Positions 7,723-56,248 of a DNA stretch of 64,000 bases are shown in pieces. Both the position numbers and the translations under genes were made by a program. Below the pieces are notes generated by a model. It made no database searches, was not told where the DNA came from, and saw only the letters and a list, made by a program, of their open reading frames with translations. Numbering within the stretch: the stretch's first letter is position 1; the number at the start of each line of letters is the position of its first letter. Origin of the DNA: Candidatus Peregrinibacteria bacterium (GTDB lineage Bacteria > Patescibacteriota > Gracilibacteria > Peribacterales > Peribacteraceae); NCBI GenBank assembly GCA_043814035.1, contig JBDRKJ010000007.1, positions 128,100 through 192,099 on the forward strand. The letters run 5' to 3'.

Positions 7723-10062
7723 CTAAAGCCTTCGCTTAAGCCAAAGTAGAGACACCCCCACGCTCGAAAGTACCCCCAAAACGCCCATTTCGGGTATGGA
7801 GGATTGCTGGCGGTCTTCGCCCGTCACCGTCAGAGAGTCGGGTAATTCGGTCTCCACGAAGGTCATGAGGAGGGAACCGGATACAGAGGAAGGAAAAGAA
7901 AGAGAAGAAATAGAGGATCGGGACGCCGAGACATAGCGAGTCCGTGAGAATGCGGGCGCTGCCGCGGCGACGGATTTCTTTGCGCTCGCGATGGATGAGA
8001 CTGGTAATGGCAGAGTTGTCTGACACGTATTGGGTAACCCGGGCGTGGGATCGGAGGTTCTCCATTCCCCGTTGCAAAAACTCAACGACGTTCCTGCTTT
8101 GAGTTTCGGAATCGTAACGTGATCGGACCATGAATTATCGGGCGCAATCAGCCACACGTCATCGCCTGTATCGTTGAGGGCGAGCTTCGTATCATCCCGC
8201 GAAAATATGCGATACGCGCCAGCTGCAATCGTTGTACTCGAAGGAATAATAAATGGCTTGCTCCCACCTCCGCTCCTGGCGGAGCTACGGTGGGCAAGAC
8301 CGCCTTCACGGAGGTCATCGAGTATCCAGCCAGCCAAAGAAATTTCGTGATCGGTCGAATTGAAAAGTTCGATCCACTCATCGCCGGTCATCATCACTTC
8401 ACTTAAAACAGCACCCGTCTCAACGAGAGCAGAGGCGGAAGACGAAAAAGAAGAAATAGAGGAAGTAAAAGAAATAGAGGAGGAAGAGGAGACAGAAGAA
8501 AAAGAGGAAAGAGAAGATGAAGAAGCAGAAGATTTCGAGGAGCTGGATTGTGGTTGTTCTTTCGGAAGCACGGTCACGTTGAGAGTGCTTACTGAAATGC
8601 CTCCGCAGAAGTCACGCACCGTCAGACGCACCGTGTAATCACCGGGGTCCGAGAATGTGTGTGACGGCGGATTGCAGGCACTGCTCACTGCATCATCGCC
8701 GTAGTCCCACGTGCATACGGCGGAAGCGAGGGAACCGGCTCCGGCAGCGGCTTGCAGGTTGATCGACACGTGCTCCTCGCCCACGACAAATGCGCTGCCA
8801 ACCGAAGCCGATCCGGCATCCTGAATGAGGATGCGCGGCGCAAGTGATGCGACAACGTTTGGTTGGCCTTCGCTGGGAACGCAGAACGCATGGAGCGCGT
8901 AAGGCGGATCTTTATCGCGACCGAAACTCACCTCTTCGGCTGTCATCGGATACTCCCACGCATCGATGAGTTGTGAACCGTTCATCAGACTCACGCGCTC
9001 GCCGTTGTTATCGAGCGGGAGACTTGTGACGGATTTGCGAAACGACCAGTACTCGCCCGGTGCCAGAAAAAATCCGGAGCCGGATTGCGGCAGGATCGTG
9101 TACACCGCGGAGGAGTTTCCATCATCGAGCGTCCAACCGGCGATGTTCACGGAAACGGCTCCCAGATTGGCGATCTCGATCCACTCTTCAGTATCCGCAC
9201 CGATGGGATTTGCGAGAACTTCGGTGATGAAGACGGAGGGGATAGAAGAAGAAATAGAGGATGAAGAGGAAAGAAAAGAAATAGAGGAGAGCGAGGATGC
9301 GGATGACACGCTGCTCACGAAAGAACCGGAACCGGAGGATGACTGCACGGAACCGAGCGATGACCCTGTGGAGGAAGAGGAGGAAACTGAAAATGCCGAG
9401 GAAGCCGAAGATGCCAAGGGGGGAGAAGAGTCACGCAAAAATCCCGGCGTGCCGAAGATGGGCGCACCTTCTTTGAATCCGAGTGACAGAGTTGCCGTCT
9501 GCCAGTTCTCGGCAATATTGCCCGGCACCGCAAGATCGATGCGCTCCATACTGGCTTTGGGTAAGCCAGAAACATTTGCGCCGGCGAAGGGGCTACCCAC
9601 GCCGTCATCCACTTCATCGCGGACCACACCGTCGGCATCATAAAGCCGCAGGAGCAACTTGGTATTCGGCAGGCTCATCGACGGCGTTGTGATCCACGGC
9701 TCTGATAAAAGCCGCGAAGACGCCGCCGGATAGTTGCTCACAACGCGTACGTCACCGGCCGGGAGCATCGCACCCGTTTGGAACGTGTGAATCACGGCTT
9801 CCTCACCCGTGCTCTTTGAGCTCGTGAGAGTCCAGCCACTCAAATCGCAATCGCCTACTCCTGTGCATACGATCTCGACCCACTCATCGGACGTAGATAC
9901 ATCCGATCCCATCCACATCACTTCACTGATCACTACCGAACCGGCCGCGGCCGCCTCATCCGCGAAGACCCTGTGTGCAGGAAGACCCGAACACACGCAG
10001 AGCAGCGCTCCTGCAGGGAGCAGGTACGCGAGAAGCCGATGCAGTACTGTGCAGGTTTTCAA
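7723..10062 (-). CDS. Secreted/anchored surface protein: three lamin-tail-domain (LTD)-like repeats, one PKD-like domain, Ser-rich linkers, C-terminal hydrophobic anchor
   Basis: N-terminal signal-like LLAYLLPAGALLCVCSG. LTD-type motifs occur three times (VISEVMW...DEWVEIV...LSGWTL; ITEVLANP...EEWIEIANLG...IAGWTLDD; LSEVMMTGDEWIELFN...LAGWILDD). The PKD-like stretch is WDYGDD...HTFSDPGDYTVRLTV. The tail is IPEMGVLGVLSSVGVSLLWLKRRL. The start codon is TTG, so the start is uncertain. Confidence 0.75.
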   Translation of the reverse strand: MKTCTVLHRLLAYLLPAGALLCVCSGLPAHRVFADEAAAAGSVVISEVMWMGSDVSTSDEWVEIVCTGVGDCDLSGWTLTSSKSTGEEAVIHTFQTGAMLPAGDVRVVSNYPAASSRLLSEPWITTPSMSLPNTKLLLRLYDADGVVRDEVDDGVGSPFAGANVSGLPKASMERIDLAVPGNIAENWQTATLSLGFKEGAPIFGTPGFLRDSSPPLASSASSAFSVSSSSSTGSSLGSVQSSSGSGSFVSSVSSASSLSSISFLSSSSSISSSIPSVFITEVLANPIGADTEEWIEIANLGAVSVNIAGWTLDDGNSSAVYTILPQSGSGFFLAPGEYWSFRKSVTSLPLDNNGERVSLMNGSQLIDAWEYPMTAEEVSFGRDKDPPYALHAFCVPSEGQPNVVASLAPRILIQDAGSASVGSAFVVGEEHVSINLQAAAGAGSLASAVCTWDYGDDAVSSACNPPSHTFSDPGDYTVRLTVRDFCGGISVSTLNVTVLPKEQPQSSSSKSSASSSSLSSFSSVSSSSSISFTSSISSFSSSASALVETGAVLSEVMMTGDEWIELFNSTDHEISLAGWILDDLREGGLAHRSSARSGGGSKPFIIPSSTTIAAGAYRIFSRDDTKLALNDTGDDVWLIAPDNSWSDHVTIPKLKAGTSLSFCNGEWRTSDPTPGLPNTCQTTLPLPVSSIASAKKSVAAAAPAFSRTRYVSASRSSISSLSFPSSVSGSLLMTFVETELPDSLTVTGEDRQQSSIPEMGVLGVLSSVGVSLLWLKRRL

Positions 10063-12353: not shown

Positions 12354-15300
12354 ATGGTCTCGAAACGCACAGTTATCCTTGGGGTATTTTCCTTAAGCGT
12401 CGCGGCAGCTTTTGTCGGAACGCTCTGGAACCTGCAGGGAAATACCTTCCAGGGGCAAGTCGTCTCAGGAACATCGCAGGTCATTGATGATGGCGATGCG
12501 GGATTTAGTACATCCGGTCAAGGATGGCAGCGCTTTCAGCACTCTCTGGGATACAGAGGAGACATCATGGCTCCGTCGAAGGTGACAGATTCCTCGCTCG
12601 CTGCCACATGGACATTCTCAAATATGGCGGCCGGGCAGTACAAGTTCTACGTCACCTTCAAGGCCTACAGCCTGCTCACGAATAAAGCACCCTACACCAT
12701 CAAAGATGGATCATCGACACTCGGATCGACGACAGTGAACCAGAAGACCGATCCCACGGGCAACTTGTACGATGGAAAAAACTGGTCATTGCTCGGCATG
12801 TACACAGTGAAAGGGCCGACGGTCTCGATCACACTCTCTCGCCCACAGGATCTCACGGTGAACGGCATGATTGCGGATAGCGCTCGTATCGAACGCGTTA
12901 CGGCTCCGGCAGAAACGTTTGGGTTGCTCCCTGCTGCAGGGCTAGCTGAAGGGCAAGGTGGTTGCCGTGCGGGATTCACGCTCGTTGAGGGATACAACTA
13001 TCCTTACATTACGTGTCTAGCTTTCTGCGGGGACGACATCTGCAATACCGCCGAATACTATCAGTACAGTGGATCAACTGCCTGCTGCAAGTGTGGACCC
13101 AGTCTGTGGTGCGCTTCTTCGTCTTCCCGCTCCTCTACACCGGGAGCGACATCTTCACTCTCCTCTACACCGGGTGCAGCATCTTCGCGTTACTCTACAC
13201 CCGGAGCGACATCTTCGCGTCCTGCACAGAGCTCGGCAATGAGTAAGCCATCGACTGGAGGCTCTTCTGCGTTCGCTTCTAGTTTGCCGGATGCTGAGGT
13301 TCTTCCGCCTAACCAGCTGCAGTATCCCGGTCAGCAATGCCCCCCTGGAACGATCCCCGATTGTCCCACTCCTAATTATTGCGAATGTAAGCCGTTCCCC
13401 TGCCCGCCTGGAACGATCCTCGATTGCAATCCTAGTGGTTGCGACTGTAGGCCGCTCTCCTGCCCGGATGGGTTTTACGTCGACCACAATACTGGTATCT
13501 GCATGCCCGTCTCAGTGTGCGGCGATGGCTACGTCGAACCGCAAGGGCGACCGATTGAGCTCTGCGAAACCGGCACGAACGAAGGATGTGCTCCGGGTCG
13601 CACGTGTCAGGGGTGTACCCGCTGCGGGCTCTGTGGCGACACCTTCATCGATCGCTCCGAGACCTGTGAGGCCGACTACTCCTGCGCGAGTGGAAGTGCT
13701 TGTCAGGATTGTCAGTGCACGACATCGACCACGCCCCTCACGGCGAACATGACTTCTGCACTCGATAGTGCTAGCCCCGGTTTCTCGACGTACACCTCTC
13801 CGTACAATACGACGGTCCTCTCGTGGACCCTCGCCATTCAACCACAGAGCATGTACGACGTGTACGTCAAACTGAAGCGGGCTTACAGCGATCCCTGTCC
13901 CATCCGTAGCTACTGGCGCGTCTACGACGGGAGCCGACAGGTGCACACGCTCACCATCAATTATGGGAATTACGTCTGCACGACATGGCCGGGAACCAAC
14001 GTGCAGGGGACACAGGAGGCGTGGGTGAACATCGGTAGTGTCGTGGCATCTTCCTCTTCCCTGCGCATCGAACATGCACCGCCTCCGCCACCGGAGGGGC
14101 AGCAGCCGGCAATTACTACTTTCCAGCCAACTGCCGTGCGCGTCGTGAAACAATTCAACATCGTCGATCCCGCTCCTCTTGGCGTCACGCTCATCGACAA
14201 CGGTGATCTGGGATTCCGTACCTTGGTAGGCACGTGGGAAGAACGTCAGTTCCCCATGCCCGATGCCTGGTCCATCGGTCCCGTGACGAATCCCCTCTTC
14301 GACGACGACATCGCCCTGCAATACATTAACAGGGGTGATCCTTCGCCAACTTCGAGCTGGAGCTTTACGGTCGCCCCTGGTAGCTACCGCGTACTGGTGA
14401 CGTTCGCCAAGCTCTCTCCAGTCAACTTCGTCAATAAGAACGCCATATACTCCGTGCGCAACGGCAACCAGGCCGGACCAGAGCTTGGCCGCGTGACAGT
14501 CGATCACTCCTATCCTCCCAATGGCCCGATGTACCGCTTCGTATCGTGGAAAGATCTGGGCACCTACACCGTCACCGGTAACCGCCTCTCGGTCGTGCTC
14601 ACGAATCCCTACGGTCTCAGTTCCGATGCCGTGCGCATCGAGAAGATCGGCGGCGCCAGTTCCTCGGCACAATCGTCCTATTGGAGCTCCGCTTCGTCAC
14701 AGGGTCTCACTTGTTCTTCGCTGCCCTGGTTGCAGTGTGCATCCGGATTCCAGTGTCTTGCACAGTGCATCAATGGTGACTGTGCTGGTGTTGATACCCT
14801 CGGCTGCCCGCCCGGGACGGTGTCTCAGCGTAATGGAACGTGCGGTAATGACCTTTGTCACAATGAGTGTGAGCGGTGCGTCCCTGTTGCCTCGTCTTCG
14901 CGCTCATCCGCCAGCTCTCAACAGTGGTTTGGGTGTTCGGGCAGTTTCAAATGCAATGTCGCATGGGCAAACAACCAGTGTGCTCGCCTCTCCATCGACT
15001 GCTCTCCCGGTACGCAACTTGTCTGTGACGCCCCCTGTGGTTCTGCCTCCTGTGGTGGAGAGTGCTGCAGGTGTGCGAGTGTTGCATCGTCGCGTTCCTC
15101 TGCCTCATCGGTCGTCGCCTGTGCGAACGAGGGCGAAGTGGTTTCCGAGGGGAACATGCGACCCTGCTGCGATAGCCTGAAATCGATTCCGTTCATACAG
15201 CCCGATGCGAGCAATCAATGTTTCAACATATCGCTCAACAGCATTTGCACGCGATGTGGCAACGGCCAGTGCGGAACAGGAGAGAACTTCTGTAATTGCA

Positions 15301-17612
15301 CCAACGACTGCCCGCGACCAGCTTCTTCACGTTCGTCTGCTGTCTCTTCGGCATCCTCAACTGCATGGAGGGTCTGCGATGCGAACCTTCTGTGCGAAGT
15401 ACAGTGGTACCAAAACCAGTGCAACGTATTACCAATCGACTGTATGCCCGGGGCCAATCTGGTGTGTGACGGTGGTGCATGCGGAAACAATCAATGTGCC
15501 GGTCGCTGCTGCAGATGCGTGGGTGGTACGTCTTCACGTTCCTCTACCTCATCGGCCGCCGCTGCCTGCGGCAACTATCGGCTCGATCCCGGCGAACAGT
15601 GTGACGGACCGAACCTTCCCTGCCAGCCCGGTCAGGTGTGTACGGCCGACTGTACGTGCGTCCCGCAACCTCCCAACCGCATTCAGTGGGAGACGGTTGG
15701 TGATTCCTACCTTGTAAGCACACTCAGTGATTACGCGATCTTCGGACACGGCTCGTACCTCTACATTGTTGGAGGCATGGGCTTCTGGGGTCCAACACGC
15801 GATGAACTGCGTTCATCTGATGGCCTCAGTTGGAGCAGGGTGGCCTCGCTACCCCAATCTCTCTCGAATACTGCCTATCTGCAATCCGATGCCGCTGCCC
15901 TCCTCGTTGGAGGACTGCTGAACGCCGATAGCACGGTGCATTGGGCCTTCGAGACCCCGAACCTCCTCACGGTAGGTTTCCAATCAAACCCGGATTATGG
16001 GCTCTCAAGTCCGCGCTACGACGGTGCGCTCCTGCGGGTGGGAGATCGCACGTACTTCTTAGGCGGTTATTCCAAATCCAGTCCGCTCGGTGGCTTCTTG
16101 TTGAGCTCTCTCTTAGGCTCGCTCGTGAGCCAGACGGCGATCTCGACTCCCTCAAAAGAAATCTACCTGCACGTCGGAACCCGCTGGTCACGCGTGCAGC
16201 CCGATCTGCCGTTCGCCGTGTCACAGGATGATGCCTTCACCATTGGTAATCGGCTCTTCATTCTCGATCGCTCCACTCCACGCAAGGTCTACATGTCGAC
16301 GACCGGTACGTCGTGGGCTCAGGTAGCAACCCTCCCGACAGAAACAGCATCGACGAAATTCCTGAAGCCTATTCAGCACAAGGGTGCCATCTGGTTCATC
16401 GCCAAATCTGGACCCCTTGCAGGCTCGGCTGTCACCACGACCAATGGACAACAGTGGATCGTAGCGGATGGAGTCTTCCCGTCGGACCTTAAAGAGTTCG
16501 AACCGGAGGCCGCTGTCTCGTTCAAAGATGAAATCTGGCTCTTGGGCTCTGTGCGTGACTATTACGTTGGCGGTAATTCCCGCAATGGCAAGGTGTTGCG
16601 CACAGGCGCTTCTGGAGGTCCGTTCTGTGGAGATGGCTTCGTGCTTTCGCCCGAACAGTGTGACGACGGCAATGCAACCCCCAGCGATGGGTGTTCCAAC
16701 TGCCAGATCGATAGTGGATGGATCTGCACAGGTTCACCGAGTCGTTGCACGATGATCATCGGCTCTTCCAGTTCGGCCCAGTCCTGTGCTCAGAACGGAG
16801 AAAGGGTCTACGTCGCATCACAGTTCGGCCCCACCACCTGCTGTAGCAAGAATGCTGGAATAAAACCCAACAGTTATCTTGCCGGGGAAATATGCGTTTC
16901 GACGACTGACGGCGCGAAGGGAACCTGTATCGACAACTGGTGGCAGACCTGCGGTGATGGGATATGTGGAGCAGATGAGGATCAGTGCAACTGTTCTGCA
17001 GATTGTCCTGCAGCCACATGCGGCAACGGCCTTTGTGAAGAAGGAGAGGCAAATTCCTGCCCGGCATGCGTGTACCAAAACCCGCCTTGTAACGCTCCCT
17101 GCCAGTCCGGCACCTGCCCCAATGATTGTCCCTCTGTCTGCGGTGACGGAAAGTGTGAGGAAAACGAGAACGCACAGAACTGTTTCCAGGATTGTTGCCC
17201 TGCCATGCTCGACTGTCCTGCTCCACCGCCGGGATGCGTATATGTGGATCCACGTGAGGATGGCAAAGGCTGCCCCATAAGTTGTGGCACGCTGAAGTGC
17301 GAAGATACCTGCGGCAACGGTCGCATCGACCTCGGCGAGGAATGTGATTCCTCGGCAGAATCTTTCGCGAACCAATGCGGACAGAGAGAAAAATGCGGCA
17401 AGGATTGTCGATGTAGCGGCGTCATTTGTCCTGTTTACTCGGCTCCATACTGCCCCAATGGCGTCTTGGTGCCGCAACTGGGACCCGACGAGAACGGCTG
17501 CAGTCTGCCTCCGGTTTGCTGCAATGGAGCAAAGAACTTGAAAGCACAGTGCTCTCTCACGCTCAAATGCGGAGGAGGTTCCTGTGTGATCTCTTCATGC
17601 ACGTGCAAATAA
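12354..17612 (+). CDS. Giant Cys-rich modular surface protein A (1752 aa)
   Basis: Modules, in order:
- N-terminal hydrophobic anchor/signal.
- Golvesin-C-like beta-sandwich units (12480-12899, 14187-14648, degenerate copy 13749-14075).
- Many Cys-rich modules separated by Ser-rich linkers.
- Kelch-like blade repeats (15681-16613: YLYIVGG, TYFLGGY, RLFILD, AIWFIA, EIWLLG).
- One CGDG...CDDGN...DGC...C Myxococcus-type Cys repeat (16626-16751).
- A C-terminal CP..GVLVPQLGPDENGC..PPVCC module (17427-17609). Confidence 0.85.
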   Translation: MVSKRTVILGVFSLSVAAAFVGTLWNLQGNTFQGQVVSGTSQVIDDGDAGFSTSGQGWQRFQHSLGYRGDIMAPSKVTDSSLAATWTFSNMAAGQYKFYVTFKAYSLLTNKAPYTIKDGSSTLGSTTVNQKTDPTGNLYDGKNWSLLGMYTVKGPTVSITLSRPQDLTVNGMIADSARIERVTAPAETFGLLPAAGLAEGQGGCRAGFTLVEGYNYPYITCLAFCGDDICNTAEYYQYSGSTACCKCGPSLWCASSSSRSSTPGATSSLSSTPGAASSRYSTPGATSSRPAQSSAMSKPSTGGSSAFASSLPDAEVLPPNQLQYPGQQCPPGTIPDCPTPNYCECKPFPCPPGTILDCNPSGCDCRPLSCPDGFYVDHNTGICMPVSVCGDGYVEPQGRPIELCETGTNEGCAPGRTCQGCTRCGLCGDTFIDRSETCEADYSCASGSACQDCQCTTSTTPLTANMTSALDSASPGFSTYTSPYNTTVLSWTLAIQPQSMYDVYVKLKRAYSDPCPIRSYWRVYDGSRQVHTLTINYGNYVCTTWPGTNVQGTQEAWVNIGSVVASSSSLRIEHAPPPPPEGQQPAITTFQPTAVRVVKQFNIVDPAPLGVTLIDNGDLGFRTLVGTWEERQFPMPDAWSIGPVTNPLFDDDIALQYINRGDPSPTSSWSFTVAPGSYRVLVTFAKLSPVNFVNKNAIYSVRNGNQAGPELGRVTVDHSYPPNGPMYRFVSWKDLGTYTVTGNRLSVVLTNPYGLSSDAVRIEKIGGASSSAQSSYWSSASSQGLTCSSLPWLQCASGFQCLAQCINGDCAGVDTLGCPPGTVSQRNGTCGNDLCHNECERCVPVASSSRSSASSQQWFGCSGSFKCNVAWANNQCARLSIDCSPGTQLVCDAPCGSASCGGECCRCASVASSRSSASSVVACANEGEVVSEGNMRPCCDSLKSIPFIQPDASNQCFNISLNSICTRCGNGQCGTGENFCNCTNDCPRPASSRSSAVSSASSTAWRVCDANLLCEVQWYQNQCNVLPIDCMPGANLVCDGGACGNNQCAGRCCRCVGGTSSRSSTSSAAAACGNYRLDPGEQCDGPNLPCQPGQVCTADCTCVPQPPNRIQWETVGDSYLVSTLSDYAIFGHGSYLYIVGGMGFWGPTRDELRSSDGLSWSRVASLPQSLSNTAYLQSDAAALLVGGLLNADSTVHWAFETPNLLTVGFQSNPDYGLSSPRYDGALLRVGDRTYFLGGYSKSSPLGGFLLSSLLGSLVSQTAISTPSKEIYLHVGTRWSRVQPDLPFAVSQDDAFTIGNRLFILDRSTPRKVYMSTTGTSWAQVATLPTETASTKFLKPIQHKGAIWFIAKSGPLAGSAVTTTNGQQWIVADGVFPSDLKEFEPEAAVSFKDEIWLLGSVRDYYVGGNSRNGKVLRTGASGGPFCGDGFVLSPEQCDDGNATPSDGCSNCQIDSGWICTGSPSRCTMIIGSSSSAQSCAQNGERVYVASQFGPTTCCSKNAGIKPNSYLAGEICVSTTDGAKGTCIDNWWQTCGDGICGADEDQCNCSADCPAATCGNGLCEEGEANSCPACVYQNPPCNAPCQSGTCPNDCPSVCGDGKCEENENAQNCFQDCCPAMLDCPAPPPGCVYVDPREDGKGCPISCGTLKCEDTCGNGRIDLGEECDSSAESFANQCGQREKCGKDCRCSGVICPVYSAPYCPNGVLVPQLGPDENGCSLPPVCCNGAKNLKAQCSLTLKCGGGSCVISSCTCK
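13131..13220 (+). repeat. 3 x 30-nt in-frame tandem repeat encoding an SSTPGA(T/A)SS linker
   Basis: Units at 13131-13160, 13161-13190 and 13191-13220 (tcctctacaccgggagcgacatcttc...). They differ at a few positions only. Confidence 0.9.
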
Positions 17613-17636: not shown

Positions 17637-20600
17637 ATGCCCTCCCTCCACTTACGTTGGCCTTCCCTACTTCTCCCTCTCGGTCTCTTTGCGATCATCG
17701 CGGCTATCATTGTTACCGTCAGGTCACCCGCCTTGTGGACAGCGCAGACCGTGACGGCCTATTGCGGCAACAGTGTCGTGGATGCGGGCGAAACGTGCAT
17801 GGAGCCGGGTCTCGGAACCTGCTCTGAATCTCAGGAATGCATTCAGTGCAGATGCACAACGCCAAACAAGAGTTTCCGATGCGGCAACGTCTATGGTCGC
17901 ACGGGTGGTTGTACACCTACGCGCGCAGGAATGACATGCATGATTGAATGTCGTAATAACCGCCTCATCGCGGGTAAATGCGATGCCAATAAGAACTGCT
18001 ACGGCTACTGCGGTGACGGCAAAGTGGACCTCGGGGAACTGTGTGACACGGGCGATATACTCAACAGCGAAGCGTGCACAGAATTCTGTACTATCCGTTC
18101 AGGATGGACGTGCACAGGTTCGCCCTCACGATGCACGCTGACCCCGGCGGCCGCGTCATCGTCTGCCGCAGCAGCTTCTAGCGCATTGGCTAACCGCAAA
18201 GACATCGTACTCGATAACAACGACCTCGGTTTCATGTCGTACTCCGGTACCTGGTCGGTCAGCTCGGTCGGTTACAAGGGAGCACAACACGTTCATGCCA
18301 CCGGTCCAAGTGATTGGAATCGTCCTTTGGAATGGGGCGGCTGGTCTATCAATAGAGTGCCAGTAGGCAGTTACGGCATGTATGCTACGTGGGAACCAAG
18401 CTCCCAGTACTCCAAGAAAGTCACCCTCGAGATCGACCGCTCGAGAGGGCTCGTCTCAGTTCCGTCAGAAAACAACCGATGGACACGGGCAACCATCAAT
18501 CAGCAAAACAGCCCAACTGCCAGCTGGACATGCAATGGCAGAAAGTGGAGGTACTTCGGAAACCTGACCATCACCAAAGATTACAACTACGTCGGTGTCT
18601 TCATGTACACGGAGAATGGCGCACCCAGGAACTCACGGTTCGCCATGGATGGATTCATCCTCTCGCCGTCCGATCGCAAGCCCGTATGCGCTGTCCCACA
18701 ATCCTCTTCCAGTTCTCAAGTCTCCTCTTCGAGCTCCCAAAGCTCGTCTTCAAGTTCCCAAAGCTCCTCTTCCAGTGTCAGCAGCGATCCCTGTGAAGGA
18801 GGAAGGTGTGCGTTGGAATGCCCATGCGGTTCGATCGATTGCGGCTGTATCTGCTTGCCATGCAGCAGTAGTTCCTCTTCCAGTTCCCAAAGCTCCTTGT
18901 TCTGTGCCACTACCGGTAAACTGGTGTACGTCTCCCCATCAATGGGTCCCACGACCTGCTGCAGTCAGTTTGATAGCATTAAGCGACTCAGCTGGTTTGC
19001 GGGAAACCGATGTTACTCGCCCATCAATTCGGTCATCGGTACATGCGTAAGAGGCTGGGATGAGATCTGTGGCAACGGTTCCTGTGACACTAACGATGAG
19101 GATCAGTGCACCTGCCCCGAGGATTGCCATGGTAGTGCTCCCTCATGTGGCGATGGACAGGTGGTCTCGCCTGAACAATGTGACGATGGCAACCAGTGGA
19201 CCGATGACGGTTGTTCGCACCCCGACTGTCAGGTTGAATCTGGCTGGATCTGCTCGGGGTCTCCGAGCCAGTGCACGAGAATCGCGAGTTCCTCCAGCTC
19301 TGCCCGCCCCGTCTGTGGTAACGGCATTCGCGAAGGATCGGAGGAATGTGACAACGGCTCTGCCAACGGGCTGAATTTCAGTTGCGGAAGAGACTGTATG
19401 ATGTGCATCGCCCCGCCCCCCTGCCCGACAGGCACACACGGCTCAGGAGGCGGCATCGATGCCCGCGGGTGCGCAACCGGAGGCCAGTGCATTCCCAATG
19501 AGGCCGTTTGCGGAAATGGAATCCGCGAAGGATCAGAACAGTGCGAAGTAGGCATAACTTGCCCGCCCATCAACTGTTTCACTACTCCTTGCCCTCAGCA
19601 ACAGTGTGACTTCGCAACCTGTTCCTGCAGCTTCACCTGCCCCGATCCCACGCCCCCCATTTGCGCGGGCGGTGTGCTCTTCCCACAGCTCGGCACAGAT
19701 GAGAATGGGTGTAAACGTCCGCCGGTCTGTTGCGAGGGAGCCGCAAGCGGAGGCGAGTGCACCACAAACATGAACTGTACGAACGGCAAGTGCGTGGTGG
19801 AGTCATGTACGTGTGGCTATCTGTGCCCCGATCCCACGCCCCCCATTTGCGCGGGCGGTGTGCTCTTCCCACAACTTGGTCTGGATGAGAACGGGTGTAA
19901 ACGTCCGCCGGTCTGTTGCGAGGGAGCCGCAAGCGGAGGCGAGTGCACAATGAATATGAATTGCGCGGGCGGACGATGCATAGTGGAATCCTGTACGTGT
20001 GGACACGGCGTCGCTTCGGCCTCCTCTCAACCGTTGCAAGTATCCAGCATGTCGTCAGTAAGTGGTCAGCTGTATCCTGACATCATCTATACTGGTAATG
20101 TCATTCCCCAACCGAAACTCAAGCTCAGCATTGAGGGCCCCACGTACGGCCCCGTCGACACGCCCTTCACGCTCACTGCGATAGTCGAGAATACTGGCGA
20201 CCTGTTCGACAAATCGACGGAGATGACACTCTCGTGGATTATGAGTAAGCCTGAAATTCTCTCATTCCCGCCGACCTGCACAAGAAGCTACCCGTCCGGT
20301 GGCATTTCGGGGTACCCGGTCTATTTCACCTGTCCGGTGCCTGCCATTACGCCGTCGACACCGGGGAAGAAGGTCTCCTTTCCCTTCACCTTCCAGCTCG
20401 ACCGCAGCAGATTTACCTCTGCCATTGCCAAGGCTTGCGTGGACCCGACCTCGATGATCTTCGAGCTGAAGCCCATCATCATCCGACAGAGAACGCCCGG
20501 TGGAAACATCATCAATCACCAGATGGGCGGTCAAAAAGTACCGTTGCTCTACACTCATCGATGCGATTCAAGCTCGAGCAGCAGAGTGCTGGCTGTGTGC

Positions 20601-21053
20601 GGCAACGGCATTATGGAACAGCCGGAATGGTGCGACGATGGAAATACCGCCACAGGGGACGGATGCTACAGGTGCCTCACGCAGGGAGGGTTCTCGTGCA
20701 CCAAGGTGTATGGCCAACGGTCCATCTGCACGCGCACGCAATGCGGCAACGGCGTGGTCGACTCGGGAGAGGTGTGTGATGATGGCAACGTGGTCGGAAA
20801 CGATGGTTGCGGCGGGGACTGCAAAGTGGAGTATGGATTCTCTTGCGTCATCTACAAAGACCAGCCCTCTCGCTGTAGCAGGGGAACGTGCGGCAATGGC
20901 CGATGGGATCTGTACGAAGACTGCGACGACGGTAACAAGAGCAGTAGTGACGGCTGCAGTGCGGCCTGCAAGTATGAAGCGGGTTGGATCTGCACTGGCT
21001 ACCCATCAAGATGCTCGCGCAACGGTATATCCCCACCCAAGACCACGCATTGA
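17637..21053 (+). CDS. Giant Cys-rich modular surface protein B (1138 aa), mosaic paralog of protein A
   Basis: Starts 24 nt after protein A. Modules:
- N-terminal hydrophobic anchor.
- Myxococcus-type Cys repeats (18006-18134, 19146-19274, three at 20598-21011).
- One golvesin-C-like unit (18201-18668).
- Poly-Ser linkers.
- A Cys module shared with A (18900-19127).
- A duplicated 62-aa module (19638-20009).
- A CARDB-like sandwich (20079-20561). Confidence 0.85.
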   Translation: MPSLHLRWPSLLLPLGLFAIIAAIIVTVRSPALWTAQTVTAYCGNSVVDAGETCMEPGLGTCSESQECIQCRCTTPNKSFRCGNVYGRTGGCTPTRAGMTCMIECRNNRLIAGKCDANKNCYGYCGDGKVDLGELCDTGDILNSEACTEFCTIRSGWTCTGSPSRCTLTPAAASSSAAAASSALANRKDIVLDNNDLGFMSYSGTWSVSSVGYKGAQHVHATGPSDWNRPLEWGGWSINRVPVGSYGMYATWEPSSQYSKKVTLEIDRSRGLVSVPSENNRWTRATINQQNSPTASWTCNGRKWRYFGNLTITKDYNYVGVFMYTENGAPRNSRFAMDGFILSPSDRKPVCAVPQSSSSSQVSSSSSQSSSSSSQSSSSSVSSDPCEGGRCALECPCGSIDCGCICLPCSSSSSSSSQSSLFCATTGKLVYVSPSMGPTTCCSQFDSIKRLSWFAGNRCYSPINSVIGTCVRGWDEICGNGSCDTNDEDQCTCPEDCHGSAPSCGDGQVVSPEQCDDGNQWTDDGCSHPDCQVESGWICSGSPSQCTRIASSSSSARPVCGNGIREGSEECDNGSANGLNFSCGRDCMMCIAPPPCPTGTHGSGGGIDARGCATGGQCIPNEAVCGNGIREGSEQCEVGITCPPINCFTTPCPQQQCDFATCSCSFTCPDPTPPICAGGVLFPQLGTDENGCKRPPVCCEGAASGGECTTNMNCTNGKCVVESCTCGYLCPDPTPPICAGGVLFPQLGLDENGCKRPPVCCEGAASGGECTMNMNCAGGRCIVESCTCGHGVASASSQPLQVSSMSSVSGQLYPDIIYTGNVIPQPKLKLSIEGPTYGPVDTPFTLTAIVENTGDLFDKSTEMTLSWIMSKPEILSFPPTCTRSYPSGGISGYPVYFTCPVPAITPSTPGKKVSFPFTFQLDRSRFTSAIAKACVDPTSMIFELKPIIIRQRTPGGNIINHQMGGQKVPLLYTHRCDSSSSSRVLAVCGNGIMEQPEWCDDGNTATGDGCYRCLTQGGFSCTKVYGQRSICTRTQCGNGVVDSGEVCDDGNVVGNDGCGGDCKVEYGFSCVIYKDQPSRCSRGTCGNGRWDLYEDCDDGNKSSSDGCSAACKYEAGWICTGYPSRCSRNGISPPKTTH
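19638..20009 (+). repeat. 186-bp in-frame tandem duplication (2 copies) inside protein B
   Basis: Copies at 19638-19823 and 19824-20009 both encode CPDPTPPICAGGVLFPQLG.DENGCKRPPVCCEGAASGGEC.... The first ~125 nt of each copy are almost identical at the nucleotide level. Confidence 0.9.
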
Positions 21054-23387: not shown

Positions 23388-23417
23388 CGTAGCTGGGGTT
23401 CATGAACCCCAGCTACG
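23388..23417 (+). promoter_or_regulatory. Perfect 13-bp hairpin between tuf and rpsJ (attenuator/processing-site candidate)
   Basis: CGTAGCTGGGGTT-CATG-AACCCCAGCTACG, 12 nt after the tuf stop, with no U-tract. The ATG of the longest rpsJ ORF (23402) sits in the loop. Confidence 0.5.
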
Positions 23418-23452
23418 ACGAGAATTATCTTGCTCTTTCCCCCCTCCTCTCC

Positions 23453-23962
23453 ATGGCCCCTCAGAAGAAGGCACCAGCGAAGAAATCCCCTCCTGCAAAG
23501 GATACGAAGAAAAAAGCTCCTGTGCAGAAGAAGACTCGTGCCTCCCAGCCTTCGCTGAAGCTTCGACCGGCAAGCAAGAGGGAGCCTGTGGTTGCCGTGC
23601 AAGAGAAGAAACACACTCACTCTCCTACTCCCAAGAAAGCAGCCGATGCAAAGGCTGTCCCTTCGATTCGTATTCGCTTGAGCGCGTTCGATCACACTGT
23701 TTTGGATGAGGCAGCAGCAAAGATTATCGATACCGCAGAGCGCTCGGGTGCTGTGATTCACGGGCCGATTCCCCTGCCCACCCGCATCCGCAAGTTCACC
23801 GTGAATCGCTCAACCTTCGTGCACAAGAACTCGCGCGATCAGTTCGAGATGCGTACGCACCGTCGCCTAATCGACCTTAAAGAAACCACGTTCAAAACCA
23901 TGGAGAGCCTGCAGAGCTTGAGCCTACCCTCCGGCGTGGATATTGAGATTAAAATGCGGTGA
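23453..23962 (+). CDS. rpsJ: Ribosomal protein uS10 with a ~70-aa Lys/Pro/Ala-rich N-terminal extension
   Basis: The core [14 protein letters not shown]...GPIPLPT...[26 protein letters not shown] is canonical S10. The start is placed at ATG 23453 ([11 protein letters not shown]), which is preceded by a CT-rich leader. Alternative start at 23402. Confidence 0.88.
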
Positions 23963-25449: not shown

Positions 25450-26139
25450 TCACCGCCTGTTACCGCTGAGCGCCAGCATGAAACGTAGAATATACAGGAA
25501 GAGATTGAAGATATCGAGATAGAGACTCAGGGCCAGCAGAAAGGGATTAGCCCCCAGACGACCGAGTGCCTGAATGCGTTGTATATCGTACGCAGTGAAC
25601 GCCGCAAAGATCACAACACCCACCCCTGCAATAAGTACCTCTGCTCCGCCGGTACGAAGTGCCGGCACAAAGATCTGCAGAAGTGCGATCGCAATAAGCC
25701 CAATAAGCCCCATGAAGAGCACTCTTCCGAGACCCGAGAGATCCGCCTTCGTCGTGAGCGCGAATACCGCTGTTCCTGCGGCCATGAAGACCGTCGCAGC
25801 CAGAGCATTGAGCAGAATCGTCGCTCCATTTACGTACCCCGCAAGAACGTACAGGATGTAGGGAGAGACTGTAATACCTGACAGCAGCGGAAAGGTTGCA
25901 AAGAGAATGATGTTGAGCGGTGAGGAACGCATCCACATGCGCGACGTGAAGATTAAAACGAGCTCAGCAATGAGAAAGAAAATATGTAAACCTGAACCAA
26001 TCAACACCCGGGCGTACGCAATACCGAGAAATGTTCCAACAACCGTGAGGGCGAGGGCGAGAGCAAAAAGCCCATACACCTTCGCTTCAGAGGAGGAATT
26101 GAGTACAACCGGATGACTGCGGACAGAAGTGAGCGCCAT
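25450..26139 (-). CDS. BAX inhibitor-1/YccA family membrane protein
   Basis: Seven hydrophobic segments and the family C-terminus (AFTAYDIQRI...LALSLYLDIFNLFLYILRF). The start is set at internal ATG 26139. The longer ORF to 26355 overlaps the divergent gene and is Cys-rich junk. Confidence 0.8.
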   Translation of the reverse strand: MALTSVRSHPVVLNSSSEAKVYGLFALALALTVVGTFLGIAYARVLIGSGLHIFFLIAELVLIFTSRMWMRSSPLNIILFATFPLLSGITVSPYILYVLAGYVNGATILLNALAATVFMAAGTAVFALTTKADLSGLGRVLFMGLIGLIAIALLQIFVPALRTGGAEVLIAGVGVVIFAAFTAYDIQRIQALGRLGANPFLLALSLYLDIFNLFLYILRFMLALSGNRR

Positions 26140-26259
26140 AAGGATCCCATCATACGATTGACGACAAAGAATGCAATTGCCGCTTGCATAAGCCTCTTTA
26201 CCGATGCTCTTTTCTGAGGATAGCCACAGAATCCAGTTTCTGGTACAATAAACAGATTT

Positions 26260-27069
26260 ATGCGCAAGTTCTCCGCAGCAATCATCGCCGTACTTGCCGC
26301 CATCCTTCCACAGGTGGTCCTGGCAGCCTCGAACCCGAATCCGGGCATCATTCAAACGTGCGTCGTGCCGGGAATTTCCTGTCTTGGCGGAGACCTAGCC
26401 TCGTACATCGACTCGACCATACTCGAAGGGGCACGCATCGCCTTCACGGGGCTACTCTTCGGCGCCATTCTGTACTACGGCATTCGACTGCTCCTTGCCC
26501 CCGAGAGTGAGAATACTCTGACAGAAACCTCAAAGGCATTTGAGTATGCAATCTTCGGTGTCATCCTCATGGTTGGTGCGAACCTCATCGCTTCCAGTTT
26601 TGTGACAGGAGGCGTAGCCGAACCAGCGGGATTGACCACCGTACTCGGTACAATCGTCACCTTCATTAAAGCGATCATCGCCACAGCCCTACTTGTGAAT
26701 ATCAGCATTCAGGGATTCAACATGATCACCTCGACCGACGAAGGTGGCTTCACCAAAGCGCGAACACGCTTTCTTCATGGTGTGTACGGCGCAGCCATTG
26801 TGCTTCTGGCCTCACCGATCGTGAACATGGTGTACGGCAAGAACCCTTCAGCCGGAGAGATCGAATTAAAGGGAATTGCCAACTACATCATTACCATCTT
26901 CGGCCTACTCGCCGTCGTGGCACTGATCATAAGCGGTATCATGCTGATTGTTTCTGTTGATGAGAGTTTCAAAGACCGAGCAAAGAAGCTCGTTACCGGA
27001 AGCCTCATTGCTCTCATCGTCGTCATCTCGGCCGGTGCACTCGTCAATTTCTTCATCATTCGACCATGA
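26260..27069 (+). CDS. Membrane protein made of three VirB2/T4SS-pilin-like helical hairpin repeats (copy 1)
   Basis: Signal peptide (AVLAAILPQVVLAAS), then three units of hydrophobic helix, short polar loop (S.DE....KA+) and hydrophobic helix. An example unit is LLAVVALIISGIMLIVSVDESFKDRAKKLVTGSLIALIVVISAGALVNFFI. Confidence 0.6.
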   Translation: MRKFSAAIIAVLAAILPQVVLAASNPNPGIIQTCVVPGISCLGGDLASYIDSTILEGARIAFTGLLFGAILYYGIRLLLAPESENTLTETSKAFEYAIFGVILMVGANLIASSFVTGGVAEPAGLTTVLGTIVTFIKAIIATALLVNISIQGFNMITSTDEGGFTKARTRFLHGVYGAAIVLLASPIVNMVYGKNPSAGEIELKGIANYIITIFGLLAVVALIISGIMLIVSVDESFKDRAKKLVTGSLIALIVVISAGALVNFFIIRP

Positions 27070-27872
27070 CATATCGCTCTGTCATACGCTGGCTGGGAGC
27101 ATGTGCGCTGTGGACCATCCCCATGGTGGCTTACGGCTTCTTCGAAGACACCATTCAGCACGTGGGCGGCGCACTCTCGAGTGGGATTGGTGGTGCGGAA
27201 TTCGGCAGTATCTACCAGGTCATCACCGAATCTCTGGTGGGAATAGCATCAATTCTCGGTGTTGTAATGATCGTGCGAACAGGACTCACCCTCACGATCA
27301 GTCAGGATGAGGGACAATTCGCCAAGGCGAAGAAAACAATCATTGCTGTTTCTGCAGCACTCATCATCATCAATCTTGCTCCGCGGATCGCCGAGGCGTT
27401 CATTGCCTACCAGAGCGGCGGACCCGGTATTCTGGATACAGAAATAAGAGGCCTTCTCAGCTTCTTTGAAACGGTTGCTGCGATCACGGCAATCATCTTC
27501 TTGATTGTGAGCGGTATTCGCGCGGTGATCAGCTACGGAGGAGAAGACGGTGGAACACACATGAAACGTGCGATTATCAGTATTGGAGCAGGTATCCTCA
27601 TTATTGCCGCCAAACTGCTCATCGTGAACGCCGTTGTCATTGAGCGCACGCCGGGCGGCATCCTCGCGATCATCTCCACATTCATGACACTACTACTCGG
27701 CTTCGTCGCGTTCGTTGCAACGATCGTACTTATTTGGGCCGGCCTGCTGATGATCGTGAATCTCGGCAAGGATGAACAGTACACGCGTGCCAAGAATCTC
27801 GTCATCCGCGTGGGCATCGGCCTCATTGTCATCCTCGTAAGCCTCGCATTGGTGCAATTTGTTATTGTATAG
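27066..27872 (+). CDS. Membrane protein made of three VirB2/T4SS-pilin-like helical hairpin repeats (copy 2, paralog)
   Basis: ATGA start/stop overlap with copy 1. Same three-unit architecture (ILGVVMIVRTGLTLTISQDEGQFAKAKKTIIAVSAALIIINLA; IIFLIVSGIRAVISYGGEDGGTHMKRAIISIGAGILIIAA; IVLIWAGLLMIVNLGKDEQYTRAKNLVIRVGIGLIVILVS). Confidence 0.6.
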   Translation: MTYRSVIRWLGACALWTIPMVAYGFFEDTIQHVGGALSSGIGGAEFGSIYQVITESLVGIASILGVVMIVRTGLTLTISQDEGQFAKAKKTIIAVSAALIIINLAPRIAEAFIAYQSGGPGILDTEIRGLLSFFETVAAITAIIFLIVSGIRAVISYGGEDGGTHMKRAIISIGAGILIIAAKLLIVNAVVIERTPGGILAIISTFMTLLLGFVAFVATIVLIWAGLLMIVNLGKDEQYTRAKNLVIRVGIGLIVILVSLALVQFVIV

Positions 27873-55109: not shown

Positions 55110-55149
55110 CAGTCCTACGCTCTTCACCCTATCCCCTACCCCCTTACTC

Positions 55150-55917: not shown

Positions 55918-55951
55918 TTCCTCTACCCCTCACTCTACCCCTAACCCTATT

Positions 55952-56176
55952 ATGCGTACTCTCGTCCAAATCCCCGGCATACACTGCCAGTTCTGCGCCG
56001 TCCTCATCAGGGACGTCAGTCAGGAATTTCCCTCCATACAGAACATCGACGTCAATGTGGACTTAAAAACAGTCGACCTGCGCCATGACGGCCATTTCGA
56101 TCTCACATCATGGACAGGAGCTGTCGAAGAACTGAATACCTCCTATACAGTCAAACCGCTTTCACAAACACTGTGA
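55952..56176 (+). CDS. Small HMA-like (CopZ-like) protein with a variant HCQFC motif
   Basis: VQIPGIHCQFCAVLIRDV sits at the position of the MxCxxC loop. About 74 aa from ATG 55952. Confidence 0.5.
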   Translation: MRTLVQIPGIHCQFCAVLIRDVSQEFPSIQNIDVNVDLKTVDLRHDGHFDLTSWTGAVEELNTSYTVKPLSQTL

Positions 56177-56224
56177 ATGAGATTCCCTCCCGCCCTGCCG
56201 CCGCGGAAACGGTGGGGCGGGATT

Positions 56225-56248
56225 TACCTACCCCCTAGGTTGTGGTAC
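56225..56248. promoter_or_regulatory. CsoR-type operator candidate 1 (upstream of csoR)
   Basis: TACCTACCCCCTAGGTTGTGGTAC. It shares the frame TACCTA..CCCTAGGT...GGTA with site 2. Confidence 0.45.

What the first reader, a model, noticed from the sequence alone, without database searches (positions are those of the whole stretch)
26260..27872. Tandem paralogs each built from three fused VirB2/T4SS-pilin-like hairpins
Each ~269-aa protein has an N-terminal signal-like helix followed by three repeats of hydrophobic helix, short loop rich in S/D/E/G then K/R, and hydrophobic helix. In copy 1 the repeats span about aa 55-115, 125-192 and 205-267. In copy 2 they span about aa 50-112, 128-190 and 198-268.

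A single such unit looks like the ~100-130-aa proteins annotated as T4SS pilin (VirB2/TrbC-like) in many candidate-phyla genomes. I do not recall a triple fusion, duplicated in tandem with translational coupling (ATGA overlap), being described. No VirB4, VirB6 or VirD4 genes are nearby. The products could be a covalently concatenated pilin, a pilus base or pore, or an unrelated membrane scaffold.
Basis: inference. Interest (0 to 1): 0.65.

Follow-up and report, generated by a model that had tools for sequence, protein, structure and literature searches.

The report
Fused triple-hairpin pilin-like gene pair
Two adjacent, translationally coupled genes in a Peribacteria (candidate phyla radiation) genome each encode three fused copies of the small membrane hairpin that normally forms a type IV secretion pilin, which gives a natural constraint on how these still-unseen pilin assemblies are built.

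Summary
ORFs 26260-27069 (A, 269 aa) and 27066-27872 (B, 268 aa) overlap by ATGA. Each has a signal-like N-terminus followed by three helix-loop-helix hairpins. Both pass Pfam T4SS_pilin (PF18895) with three stretches each, and the six repeat positions are mutually homologous (HHalign 91-98%).

The pair is not a one-off. The A-then-B pair sits in the same housekeeping slot in 43 of 44 Peribacteria/Peregrinibacteria species loci, down to 28% identity. Its stop/start junction is always tight, and dN/dS is about 0.1. Three deeply diverged lineages carry A and B fused into one six-hairpin chain. Elsewhere in Patescibacteria, proteins with 4 to at least 15 units occur inside arrays of single-unit pilin genes.

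No VirB4 or VirD4 lies within the window or within 10 kb of the pair in any species. However, Peribacteria contigs, including one of about 1.25 Mb, encode a VirD4-like coupling ATPase with ordinary pilin genes beside it.

Best reading: a consolidated VirB2-like pilin array, six hairpins in two genes, acting as a fixed 1:1 building block of the Patescibacteria T4SS-type pilus or conduit. A static membrane ring or an unrelated scaffold is not excluded. The searchable literature describes arrays of separate pilin genes only. I rate this a new variant of a known kind.

The parts
26260..27069 (+). Gene A: 269-aa protein with a signal peptide and three T4SS_pilin (PF18895) hairpins
   Evidence: ORF. 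Pfam PF18895 44.3 bits, 3 stretches. AF2 pLDDT 84.5. dN/dS 0.08-0.12 against orthologs.
26260..26328 (+). A signal peptide (aa 1-23, MRKFSAAIIAVLAAILPQVVLA|AS), probable signal peptidase I site
   Evidence: Hydropathy 2.38 at aa 4-22. Positive n-region conserved across the family. Cleavage itself is inferred, not shown.
26359..26382 (+). Near-invariant Cys34...Cys41 pair in the post-signal N-terminal segment of A
   Evidence: At least 90% conserved in alignments A3 and A4. DsbA-like and DsbD-type genes are present in the window. The disulfide is inferred.
26395..26598 (+). Hairpin A1 (aa 46-113)
   Evidence: AF2 helices 46-79 and 84-113. PF18895 15.9 bits alone. HHalign to the other repeats 92-98%.
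26626..26838 (+). Hairpin A2 (aa 123-193)
   Evidence: AF2 helices 123-157 and 161-193. PF18895 29.9 bits and TrbC 19.1 bits alone.
26845..27057 (+). Hairpin A3 (aa 196-266), the most conserved unit, with loop motif SVDESFKDRAKK
   Evidence: AF2 helices 196-231 and 235-266. PF18895 24.8 bits alone. Best cross-paralog match to B3.
27066..27069 (+). ATGA stop/start overlap between A and B (translational coupling)
   Evidence: Sequence. In 43 species loci the junction is always -14 to +8 nt, with 17 four-nt and 9 one-nt overlaps.
27066..27872 (+). Gene B: 268-aa paralog with a signal-like N-terminus and three T4SS_pilin hairpins
   Evidence: ORF. PF18895 54.3 bits, 3 stretches. NCBIfam pilin-like conjugal transfer family 29.6 bits, below its cut-off of 40. 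dN/dS 0.07-0.16.
27066..27137 (+). B signal-like segment (aa 1-24, ...WTIPMVAYG|FFEDT)
   Evidence: Conserved positive n-region and P..A..(A/G) before the FEDT motif across the B family. Cleavage is inferred. In natural A-B fusions this segment degenerates into a linker.
27201..27416 (+). Hairpin B1 (aa 46-117)
   Evidence: AF2 helices 46-78 and 82-117. PF18895 29.4 bits alone.
27426..27644 (+). Hairpin B2 (aa 121-193)
   Evidence: AF2 helices 121-155 and 162-193. PF18895 19.1 bits alone.
27651..27866 (+). Hairpin B3 (aa 196-267), with loop motif NLGKDEQYTRAK
   Evidence: AF2 helices 196-231 and 236-267. PF18895 33.4 bits alone. Holds most of the invariant columns of the B family.
26221..26249 (+). 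Promoter-like site (TAGCCA-17-TACAAT with TG extension) 11 nt upstream of the A start. A lead only.
   Evidence: The number of sites in the region equals the shuffle expectation, so this is not evidence on its own.

Best explanation
A and B are a co-transcribed, translationally coupled pair of membrane proteins. Each is a covalent concatenation of three VirB2-like (Pfam T4SS_pilin) helical hairpins behind a cleavable signal peptide. Together they are the Peribacteria version of the Patescibacteria 'pilin array': six diverged pilin units packed into two genes, and in some lineages into one.

Each hairpin inserts with its charged loop in the cytoplasm and both ends outside, as VirB2 and TraA do. 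Units can therefore be strung together without disturbing topology.

Made in a 1:1 ratio, A and B form a hetero-oligomeric block with fixed order and stoichiometry. That block serves as the structural subunit of the T4SS-type pilus or envelope conduit that these host-dependent bacteria use. The ATPases that would drive it are encoded elsewhere in the genome.

Shown: the repeat architecture, the homology, the topology signals, the conservation, the coupling, the natural A-B fusions, and the presence of a coupling-type ATPase with ordinary pilin genes in Peribacteria. Inferred: signal-peptide cleavage, physical A-B interaction, and any role in a pilus or in T4SS function.
For: Homology:
- PF18895 scores above its cut-off with 3 stretches in each protein.
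- All six repeats hit it when scanned alone.
- 36 of 43 hairpin units sampled across the family hit it alone, and 8 also hit TrbC/VirB2.
- The six repeat positions are mutually homologous.

Topology:
- K+R averages 2-3.9 per hairpin loop, against 0.3-1.1 in the inter-hairpin linkers and 0.2-0.55 in the post-signal N-terminus.
- The confident AF2 model shows three helical hairpins.

The genes are real and constrained:
- dN/dS is 0.07-0.16.
- A directly followed by B occurs in 43 of 44 Peribacteria/Peregrinibacteria species loci, in the same slot.
- The junction is always -14 to +8 nt.
- The pair and its synteny are also kept in a relative with 36% identity.

A and B act together:
- Single-chain A1-A2-A3-B1-B2-B3 proteins exist in three lineages that are only 30-33% identical to each other.

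Concatemers behave as pilin-array members:
- Proteins with 3-6 units lie inside arrays of single-unit PF18895 genes in L052-L056.
- The slot that holds two single-unit pilins in L072 holds a 4-unit fusion in L050.

T4SS machinery exists in the lineage:
- A VirD4-like ATPase (PF10412 42-45 bits, PF02534 33-34 bits) lies about 4 kb from pilin genes in Peribacteraceae contigs, including one of about 1.25 Mb.

Literature:
- VirB2-like pilin arrays of 2-11 genes averaging 25% identity are widespread in Patescibacteria, and pilin genes lie near virB4 in only 1135 of 1948 assemblies.
- T4SS parts are dispersed in Gracilibacteria (PMC12102498).
- The six-pilin cluster of Southlakia is essential (PMC12857230).
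Against: - No VirB4, VirD4 or VirB6 gene lies in the 64-kb window or within 10 kb of the pair in any of 44 species. The context is purely housekeeping.
- I could not test whether Peribacteria have a VirB4 at all.
- I did not show that the coupling-ATPase locus and the A-B pair lie on the same genome record. Only the contig size matches.
- No pilus built from PF18895 proteins has been observed in any organism, so the name 'pilin' is itself an inference.
- The canonical TrbC/VirB2 model is matched only below its cut-off.
- No solved pilin is matched by sequence profile or by fold.
- Pulling a six-helix protein out of the membrane into a fibre has no precedent.
- Universal, fixed-copy, core-genome conservation fits a housekeeping membrane complex better than a variable host-interaction fibre.
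- There are no expression data.
Confidence: 0.5

Rival explanations
1. A and B form a static membrane ring, pore or platform. The six hairpins of an A-B heterodimer, or a small multiple of it, close into a ring that stays in the cytoplasmic membrane. It would act as a channel or as the nucleation platform of the T4SS-type apparatus, possibly taking the place of the VirB6 that is missing in this class. It would not polymerise into a fibre.
For: - The unit number (3+3) is fixed, and fully fused six-hairpin chains exist. This is what a closed assembly of defined stoichiometry would predict.
- The copy number is invariant and the location is core-genome, in contrast to the variable pilin locus next to the coupling ATPase.
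- VirB6 homologues are reported as scarce or absent in Gracilibacteria, the class that I believe contains Peribacterales in GTDB (my own knowledge for the placement; PMC12102498, for VirB6).
- From my own knowledge, an analogy: A/V-type ATPase proteolipids with 2, 3 or 13 fused hairpins form closed rings.
Against: - There is no sequence similarity to VirB6 or TrbL.
- There is no structural match to any solved channel.
- Concatemers of 4, 5, 7, 8 and at least 15 units also exist, which does not point to one ring size.
- Nothing here tests the oligomeric state.
Confidence: 0.25
2. The pair is a housekeeping membrane scaffold unrelated to secretion. The hairpin would be an old pilin-derived or merely pilin-like module, reused for a lineage-specific envelope function such as membrane organisation, lipid handling or stress response, with no T4SS involvement.
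For: - The neighbourhood is purely housekeeping (EF-Tu, S10, RNase III, NusB, Bax1-I, then the pair, then glucan phosphorylase, PGM and Gmk) and is conserved across the class.
- No T4SS gene lies within 10 kb in 44 species.
- Three of the six repeats fall below the Pfam cut-off when scanned alone.
- Short hydrophobic hairpins carry little family-specific signal.
Against: - The loop motif and the full unit length match PF18895 specifically. Other multi-pass membrane proteins in the window (Bax1-I, Vut_1, VIT1, DsbD) do not hit it.
- Related concatemers sit inside genuine pilin arrays and next to a coupling ATPase.
- The whole block is syntenic across the class, so the neighbours say little about function.
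Confidence: 0.2
3. The ORFs are chance or spurious, or the repeats are a compositional artefact of hydrophobic sequence.
For: The sequence is hydrophobic and of low complexity, and there are no transcript or peptide data.
Against: - dN/dS is about 0.1.
- Full-length orthologs run from 98% down to 28% identity in 44 species.
- There are 451 cluster representatives.
- The AF2 model is confident.
- Profile E-values reach down to 1e-14.
Confidence: 0.01

Closest known systems
VirB2-like pilin arrays of Patescibacteria, such as the essential six-pilin cluster of Ca. Southlakia epibionticum ML1 and the array of Nanosynbacter lyticus TM7x (PMC12102498, PMC12857230)
   Same: - Same Pfam family (PF18895, with weak PF04956 hits).
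- Adjacent paralogous units with low mutual identity: 29% here against an average of 25% reported.
- Chromosomal, not on a mobile element, and often not next to virB4.
- The total of six units equals the Southlakia cluster, which may be coincidence because arrays range from 2 to 11 genes.
   Different: - Here the units are covalently fused three per polypeptide instead of one per gene of about 100-130 aa.
- The number and order of units are fixed across a whole class.
- The pair sits in a ribosomal and housekeeping neighbourhood.
- Only the first unit of each chain has a signal peptide.
Conjugative pilins VirB2, TrbC and TraA of Gram-negative T4SSs (T-pilus, F-pilus)
   Same: - A two-helix hairpin with a short charged loop, a leader peptide, and both termini outside with the loop in the cytoplasm. 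The topology of the canonical pilins is from my own knowledge.
- Conserved basic residues sit just after the loop.
- Individual repeats give weak TrbC profile hits.
   Different: - The TrbC model is matched only below its cut-off.
- No solved pilin is matched by sequence or by fold.
- The host is a monoderm.
- There is no adjacent virB operon.
- Concatenated conjugative pilins are not described in the papers I could search.
Mycoplasma ICE pilin-like conjugal transfer protein family (NCBIfam NF045849, Mbov_0395 / MMCAP2_0565)
   Same: Hairpin B3 aligns over nearly the full 80-position model at 29.6 bits. NCBI gives this name to a related 4-unit concatemer, P0209.
   Different: The score is below the family cut-off of 40, and A scores only 7.8 bits. 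The family is single-unit and is encoded on conjugative elements.
Multi-hairpin proteolipid (c/K) subunits of A- and V-type ATPases (analogy only, from my own knowledge)
   Same: A two-helix membrane hairpin that normally oligomerises is found duplicated, triplicated or concatenated many times in one chain. This fixes the stoichiometry of the assembly.
   Different: There is no sequence relationship, and those proteins form closed rotor rings. The comparison only shows that hairpin concatenation is compatible with oligomeric assemblies.
VirB6 / TrbL polytopic T4SS channel subunit
   Same: A polytopic inner-membrane protein with at least five helices. It is reported as scarce or absent in the class that I believe contains Peribacteria in GTDB (placement from my own knowledge; for VirB6), which leaves a vacancy.
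   Different: There is no detectable sequence similarity, and the build, repeated hairpins, is different.

Membership tests
Pfam PF18895 T4SS_pilin | Whole-protein score above the gathering cut-off (26.6 bits) | tested here: met
   A scores 44.3 bits and B scores 54.3 bits, with 3 stretches each.
Pfam PF18895 T4SS_pilin | Each repeat on its own reaches the cut-off | tested here: inconclusive
   A2, B1 and B3 pass at 29.9, 29.4 and 33.4 bits. A1, A3 and B2 score 15.9, 24.8 and 19.1 bits. All are homologous to each other by HHalign at 91-98%.
Pfam PF18895 T4SS_pilin | Two hydrophobic helices joined by a short acidic-then-basic loop, about 70 residues per unit | tested here: met
   Hydropathy, AF2 helices, and loop charge statistics.
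TrbC/VirB2 conjugative pilin (PF04956) | Score above the gathering cut-off (27.9 bits) | tested here: not met
   The best single-repeat score is 19.1 bits. 8 of 43 family units hit at E <= 0.01.
TrbC/VirB2 conjugative pilin (PF04956) | Encoded with VirB4 and other T4SS channel genes | tested here: not met
   None in the 64-kb window or within 10 kb in 44 species.
TrbC/VirB2 conjugative pilin (PF04956) | Similarity to solved pilin structures | tested here: not met
   Foldseek finds no hit at E <= 0.001. The hairpin profile finds no pilin among PDB sequences. Foldseek is weak on bare hairpins, so this is not strong negative evidence.
TrbC/VirB2 conjugative pilin (PF04956) | Leader peptide removed, and the protein polymerises with lipid into an extracellular pilus | not testable with these tools
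   The sequence is compatible with signal peptidase I cleavage. There are no experimental data.
Patescibacteria VirB2-like pilin array (PMC12102498) | Two or more adjacent genes matching PF18895 or PF04956, with low mutual identity | tested here: met
   A and B are adjacent and 29% identical. The pair is conserved in 43 of 44 loci.
Patescibacteria VirB2-like pilin array (PMC12102498) | Each member is a single small pilin | tested here: not met
   There are three units per gene. Other arrays do contain fused members, so the published definition is too narrow.
Patescibacteria VirB2-like pilin array (PMC12102498) | The genome also encodes the T4SS ATPases (VirB4, coupling protein) | tested here: inconclusive
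   A VirD4-like ATPase with neighbouring pilin genes is found in Peribacteraceae contigs, including one of about 1.25 Mb. VirB4 was not found or searched genome-wide.
NCBIfam NF045849 pilin-like conjugal transfer protein | Score above the cut-off (40 bits) | tested here: not met
   B scores 29.6 bits and A scores 7.8 bits.
   Only sub-threshold Pfam hits (HGSNAT_cat 18 bits, DUF6112 16.7 bits). Foldseek TM-score normalised to the query is at most 0.29, and no hit reaches E <= 0.001.
VirB6 / TrbL | Profile match | tested here: not met
   No such family is listed at E <= 10.

The most novel reading that the evidence does not exclude
The A-B pair is not a fibre subunit. It is a pilin-derived membrane channel: six covalently constrained VirB2-type hairpins (A3 plus B3, or one chain in the fused lineages) close into a lipid-lined ring. 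This ring would be a core, probably essential, envelope conduit of Peribacteria, standing in for the missing VirB6 or working independently of any T4SS. That would be a new class of membrane pore evolved from a pilin, and the concatemers of 4 to 15 or more units elsewhere in the candidate phyla radiation would be size variants of the same principle.
Probability: 0.15. Interest if true: 0.8.

Novelty: new variant of a known kind. Interest (0 to 1): 0.55.

Why it matters
T4SS genes, including a cluster of VirB2-like pilins, are essential for the epibiotic growth of the only genetically tractable Patescibacteria (PMC12857230, PMC12102498). Nobody knows whether these pilins form a pilus, or how the many divergent paralogs are arranged.

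Natural concatemers fix which units are neighbours, in what order and in what ratio. These include the three-unit A and B, the six-unit A-B fusions, and chains of 4 to at least 15 units inside pilin arrays. That is the kind of constraint experimenters otherwise build by hand with tandem fusions.

These proteins give direct targets for multimer prediction, cryo-EM and cross-linking. They also show that surveys counting 'pilin genes' undercount pilin units.

The pair is also a strictly conserved, class-wide core marker of Peribacteria, which suggests a function these organisms cannot lose.

Tried and rejected
- **AF2 of B with a 23-sequence alignment:** the model was poor (pLDDT 65, pTM 0.38), and its PDB fold search returned only generic helical bundles. 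I set it aside in favour of the 141-sequence model of A.
- **Fold search with the good model of A:** no hit at E <= 0.001. This argues against a known permease fold but cannot confirm a pilin fold.
- **Sequence-profile searches of PDB** with the B family and with a hairpin-unit profile gave only noise.
- **Order of events:** HHalign of the repeat positions resolved only A3 with B3. A2-B1 and A1-A2 score as high, so whether the triplication came before the A/B duplication is left open.
- **Genome scan:** the first attempt with a 42-sequence alignment failed for lack of a conserved stretch. The 12-sequence alignment worked, but it used a single motif from the A3 loop, which may bias recovery toward Peribacteria.
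- **Expression:** only DNA metagenome runs hold the locus.
- **VirB4 in Peribacteria:** not in any held sequence, and no paper links Peregrinibacteria with VirB4. The stored part of the supplementary table of PMC12102498 has no Peribacteria rows. With the genome-collection scan already spent and no seed sequence, a genome-wide test was not possible.
- **Type IV (T4P) pilin reading:** considered and rejected. The 'G|FFEDT' after B's signal segment superficially recalls a prepilin site, but no hydrophobic helix follows it and there is no globular domain.
- **Promoter and terminator scan:** counts equal the shuffle expectation.
Full report
**What is there.** On the + strand, ORF A (26260-27069, 269 aa) and ORF B (27066-27872, 268 aa) overlap by the four bases ATGA. 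Each protein starts with a hydrophobic, signal-like segment followed by six hydrophobic helices in three pairs. An AlphaFold2 model of A built on 141 homologs is confident (pLDDT 84.5, pTM 0.64). It shows a signal helix (2-15) and three long helical hairpins: 46-79/84-113, 123-157/161-193 and 196-231/235-266. A shallower model of B gives the same layout.

**Are the repeats real, and are they pilin-like?** Pfam T4SS_pilin (PF18895, cut-off 26.6 bits) scores 44.3 bits for A and 54.3 bits for B, with three matched stretches in each. Cut out and scanned alone, the six repeats score 15.9, 29.9, 24.8, 29.4, 19.1 and 33.4 bits. Four of them also give sub-threshold TrbC/VirB2 hits. NCBIfam's Mycoplasma 'pilin-like conjugal transfer protein' model aligns to B3 at 29.6 bits, below its cut-off of 40. 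Profiles built from orthologs for each of the six repeat positions match one another at 91-98% HHalign probability. A hairpin-unit HMM finds no other ORF in the 64-kb window. Other multi-pass membrane proteins in the window do not hit PF18895. Across the wider family, 36 of 43 single units hit PF18895 on their own. No transporter family matches. The confident model has no significant match in the PDB, with TM-scores of at most 0.29 when normalised to the query. Neither fold search nor profile search reaches a solved conjugative pilin. The link to canonical VirB2 rests on the Pfam family and the weak TrbC hits.

**Topology.** Across 141 A-type and 30 B-type sequences, the hairpin loops carry 2-3.9 K+R on average. 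The linkers between hairpins carry 0.3-1.1, and the 26-32 residues after the signal segment carry 0.2-0.55, with net negative charge. The exception is the acidic loop of A1. By the positive-inside rule the loops face the cytoplasm, and the N-terminus, linkers and C-terminus face outside. From my own knowledge this is the topology of VirB2 and TraA, here repeated three times. A hairpin begins and ends on the same side, so concatenation does not disturb topology. A has a near-invariant Cys34/Cys41 pair in the outside N-terminal segment. The window also encodes DsbA-like and DsbD-type proteins.

**Organism and conservation.** The closest homologs are from Candidatus Peribacteraceae/Peregrinibacteria, including Ca. 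Peribacter riflensis. A full HMMER scan of 1.84 billion cluster representatives with A finds 451 proteins at E <= 0.001. Most of the top 150 are 250-290 aa and match over their full length. A-type and B-type form separate families. A scan of species-representative genomes returned 44 loci, all Peribacteria/Peregrinibacteria except two labelled only 'bacterium', down to 28% identity. In 43 of them, A is directly followed by B in the same slot: EF-Tu, S10, RNase III, NusB, Bax1-I, then A and B, then glucan phosphorylase (where present), PGM, asparaginase and Gmk. The A-stop/B-start distance is always -14 to +8 nt, with 17 four-nt and 9 one-nt overlaps. dN/dS against five orthologs is 0.07-0.16 for both genes. 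These are real, constrained, co-translated core genes and not mobile-element cargo.

**Fusions.** The 44th locus (L030) has one 608-aa ORF identical to P0066. Together with P0042 and P0062, it encodes A1-A2-A3-B1-B2-B3 in one chain. The three are only 30-33% identical to each other, and the former B signal segment has degenerated into a linker. This Rosetta-stone pattern supports A and B acting together, 1:1 and in the same orientation. Independent concatemers also exist, with 4, 5, 6, 7, 8 and at least 15 nearly identical units. Among the 225 proteins collected, 173 have three units.

**Context of concatemers elsewhere.** In another CPR lineage, 3-6-unit proteins sit inside arrays of single-unit PF18895 genes downstream of gyrA, a methyltransferase gene and an SBP gene. 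No VirB4 lies within 10 kb. In a Peribacteraceae contig (L050), a 4-unit protein (P0218) lies about 4 kb from an 837-aa VirD4-like coupling ATPase (PF10412 45.4 bits, PF02534 33.9 bits). A lytic transglycosylase-like gene and a peptidoglycan-binding gene lie between them, and a PKD-domain protein follows. That ATPase has at least 171 relatives in metagenome contigs, of which the best 80 are 66-85% identical (plus one identical copy). One of these, at 75% identity, lies on a 1,248,112-bp contig (L072), where the same slot holds two single-unit T4SS_pilin genes of 34.7 bits each. That contig size matches the 1,248,181-bp Peribacter riflensis contig that carries the A-B orthologs. I did not show both loci on one record. 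The lineage thus appears to have a variable pilin locus beside a T4SS-type ATPase, plus the invariant A-B pair elsewhere. No VirB4 was seen in any sequence I held.

**Literature.** Quinonero-Coronel et al. 2025 (PMC12102498) report VirB4 in 2,417 of 3,035 Patescibacteria genomes and VirB2-like pilins in 1,948 assemblies, near virB4 in only 1,135. They report 441 arrays of 2-11 pilin genes averaging 25% identity. For Gracilibacteria they report dispersed T4SS genes and scarce or absent VirB6. The 2025 FEMS review (PMC12857230) notes that the Southlakia T4SS locus has six divergent VirB2-like pilins, that they are essential, and that whether a pilus forms is unknown. Neither paper mentions several pilin units fused in one polypeptide, and nothing else I could search does. 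The 2016 Peribacteria genome paper mentions type II secretion and type IV pili but not T4SS.

**Interpretation.** The best-supported reading is that A and B are a consolidated pilin array. Six diverged VirB2-like units are made as two three-unit chains at 1:1. They form a fixed building block of the Patescibacteria T4SS-type pilus or conduit, driven by ATPases encoded elsewhere. I put this at about 0.5. The homology and architecture part is above 0.9.

The main rival (0.25) is a static ring or platform in the membrane. It is favoured by the fixed unit number, the full fusions, the core-genome location and the reported lack of VirB6 in the class. A pilin-derived scaffold unrelated to secretion (0.2) remains possible, given the housekeeping context and the absence of any experimental evidence that PF18895 proteins form pili. 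An artefact is excluded.

**Verdict.** The architecture is common in databases but undescribed in the searchable literature, so I rate it a new variant of a known kind. It is of moderate interest as a natural constraint on an unsolved assembly.

Noticed in passing
window 2069-7675 (-), 7723-10062 (-), 12354-17612 (+), 17637-21053 (+): Four very large predicted surface proteins lie upstream of the pair: 1868 aa with no Pfam hit, 779 aa with three Lamin-tail domains plus PKD, 1752 aa with Golvesin_C plus DUF4215, and 1138 aa with four DUF4215 stretches. This fits the large exported cysteine-rich proteins reported for Peribacteria (PMC4736985).
   Followed up: partly
window 23402-23962 (+): The ribosomal protein S10 ORF is 186 aa, but the S10 domain covers only residues 90-184. 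Relatives are called at 163-185 aa, so an N-terminal extension of roughly 60-90 aa seems conserved in this lineage.
   Followed up: no
window 53709-58998 (+): A single 466-aa protein combines HMA, DsbD_2 and cupredoxin domains. It is followed by a DsbA-like thioredoxin (55150-55917) and a heavy-metal P-type ATPase (56641-58998). This is an unusual copper and disulfide-handling cluster.
   Followed up: no
P0177 (1775 aa), P0179 (820 aa), P0158 (583 aa) from the representative search: Single polypeptides carry at least 15, 8 and 7 T4SS_pilin hairpins with nearly identical repeats. These are extreme concatemers whose genomic context I could not fetch.
   Followed up: partly
L072 3184-12478 and L050 3437-13296: A conserved Peribacteria locus holds a VirD4-like coupling ATPase, a lytic transglycosylase-like (DPBB_1) gene, a peptidoglycan-binding protein and an M24 peptidase. 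It then holds a variable pilin slot (two single units in L072, one 4-unit fusion in L050) followed by a PKD-domain protein of about 690 aa. No VirB4 lies within 22 kb.
   Followed up: partly
L052, L053, L055, L056, L054: In another CPR lineage, pilin arrays of 4-7 genes follow gyrA, a methyltransferase gene and an SBP_bac_1 gene. Each array contains exactly one concatenated member of 3-6 units at a fixed position, flanked by single-unit genes.
   Followed up: partly
L054 4010-7711: The GyrA gene is interrupted by an intein (Intein_splicing plus LAGLIDADG_3 domains, 1233 aa in total).
   Followed up: no
window 25450-26355 (-) against 26260 (+): The mechanically listed 301-aa Bax1-I ORF overlaps the start of gene A. 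Orthologs are 229-230 aa, so the true start is probably internal. That would leave an intergenic region of about 115 bp, transcribed divergently, that contains the only promoter-like match upstream of A.
   Followed up: partly
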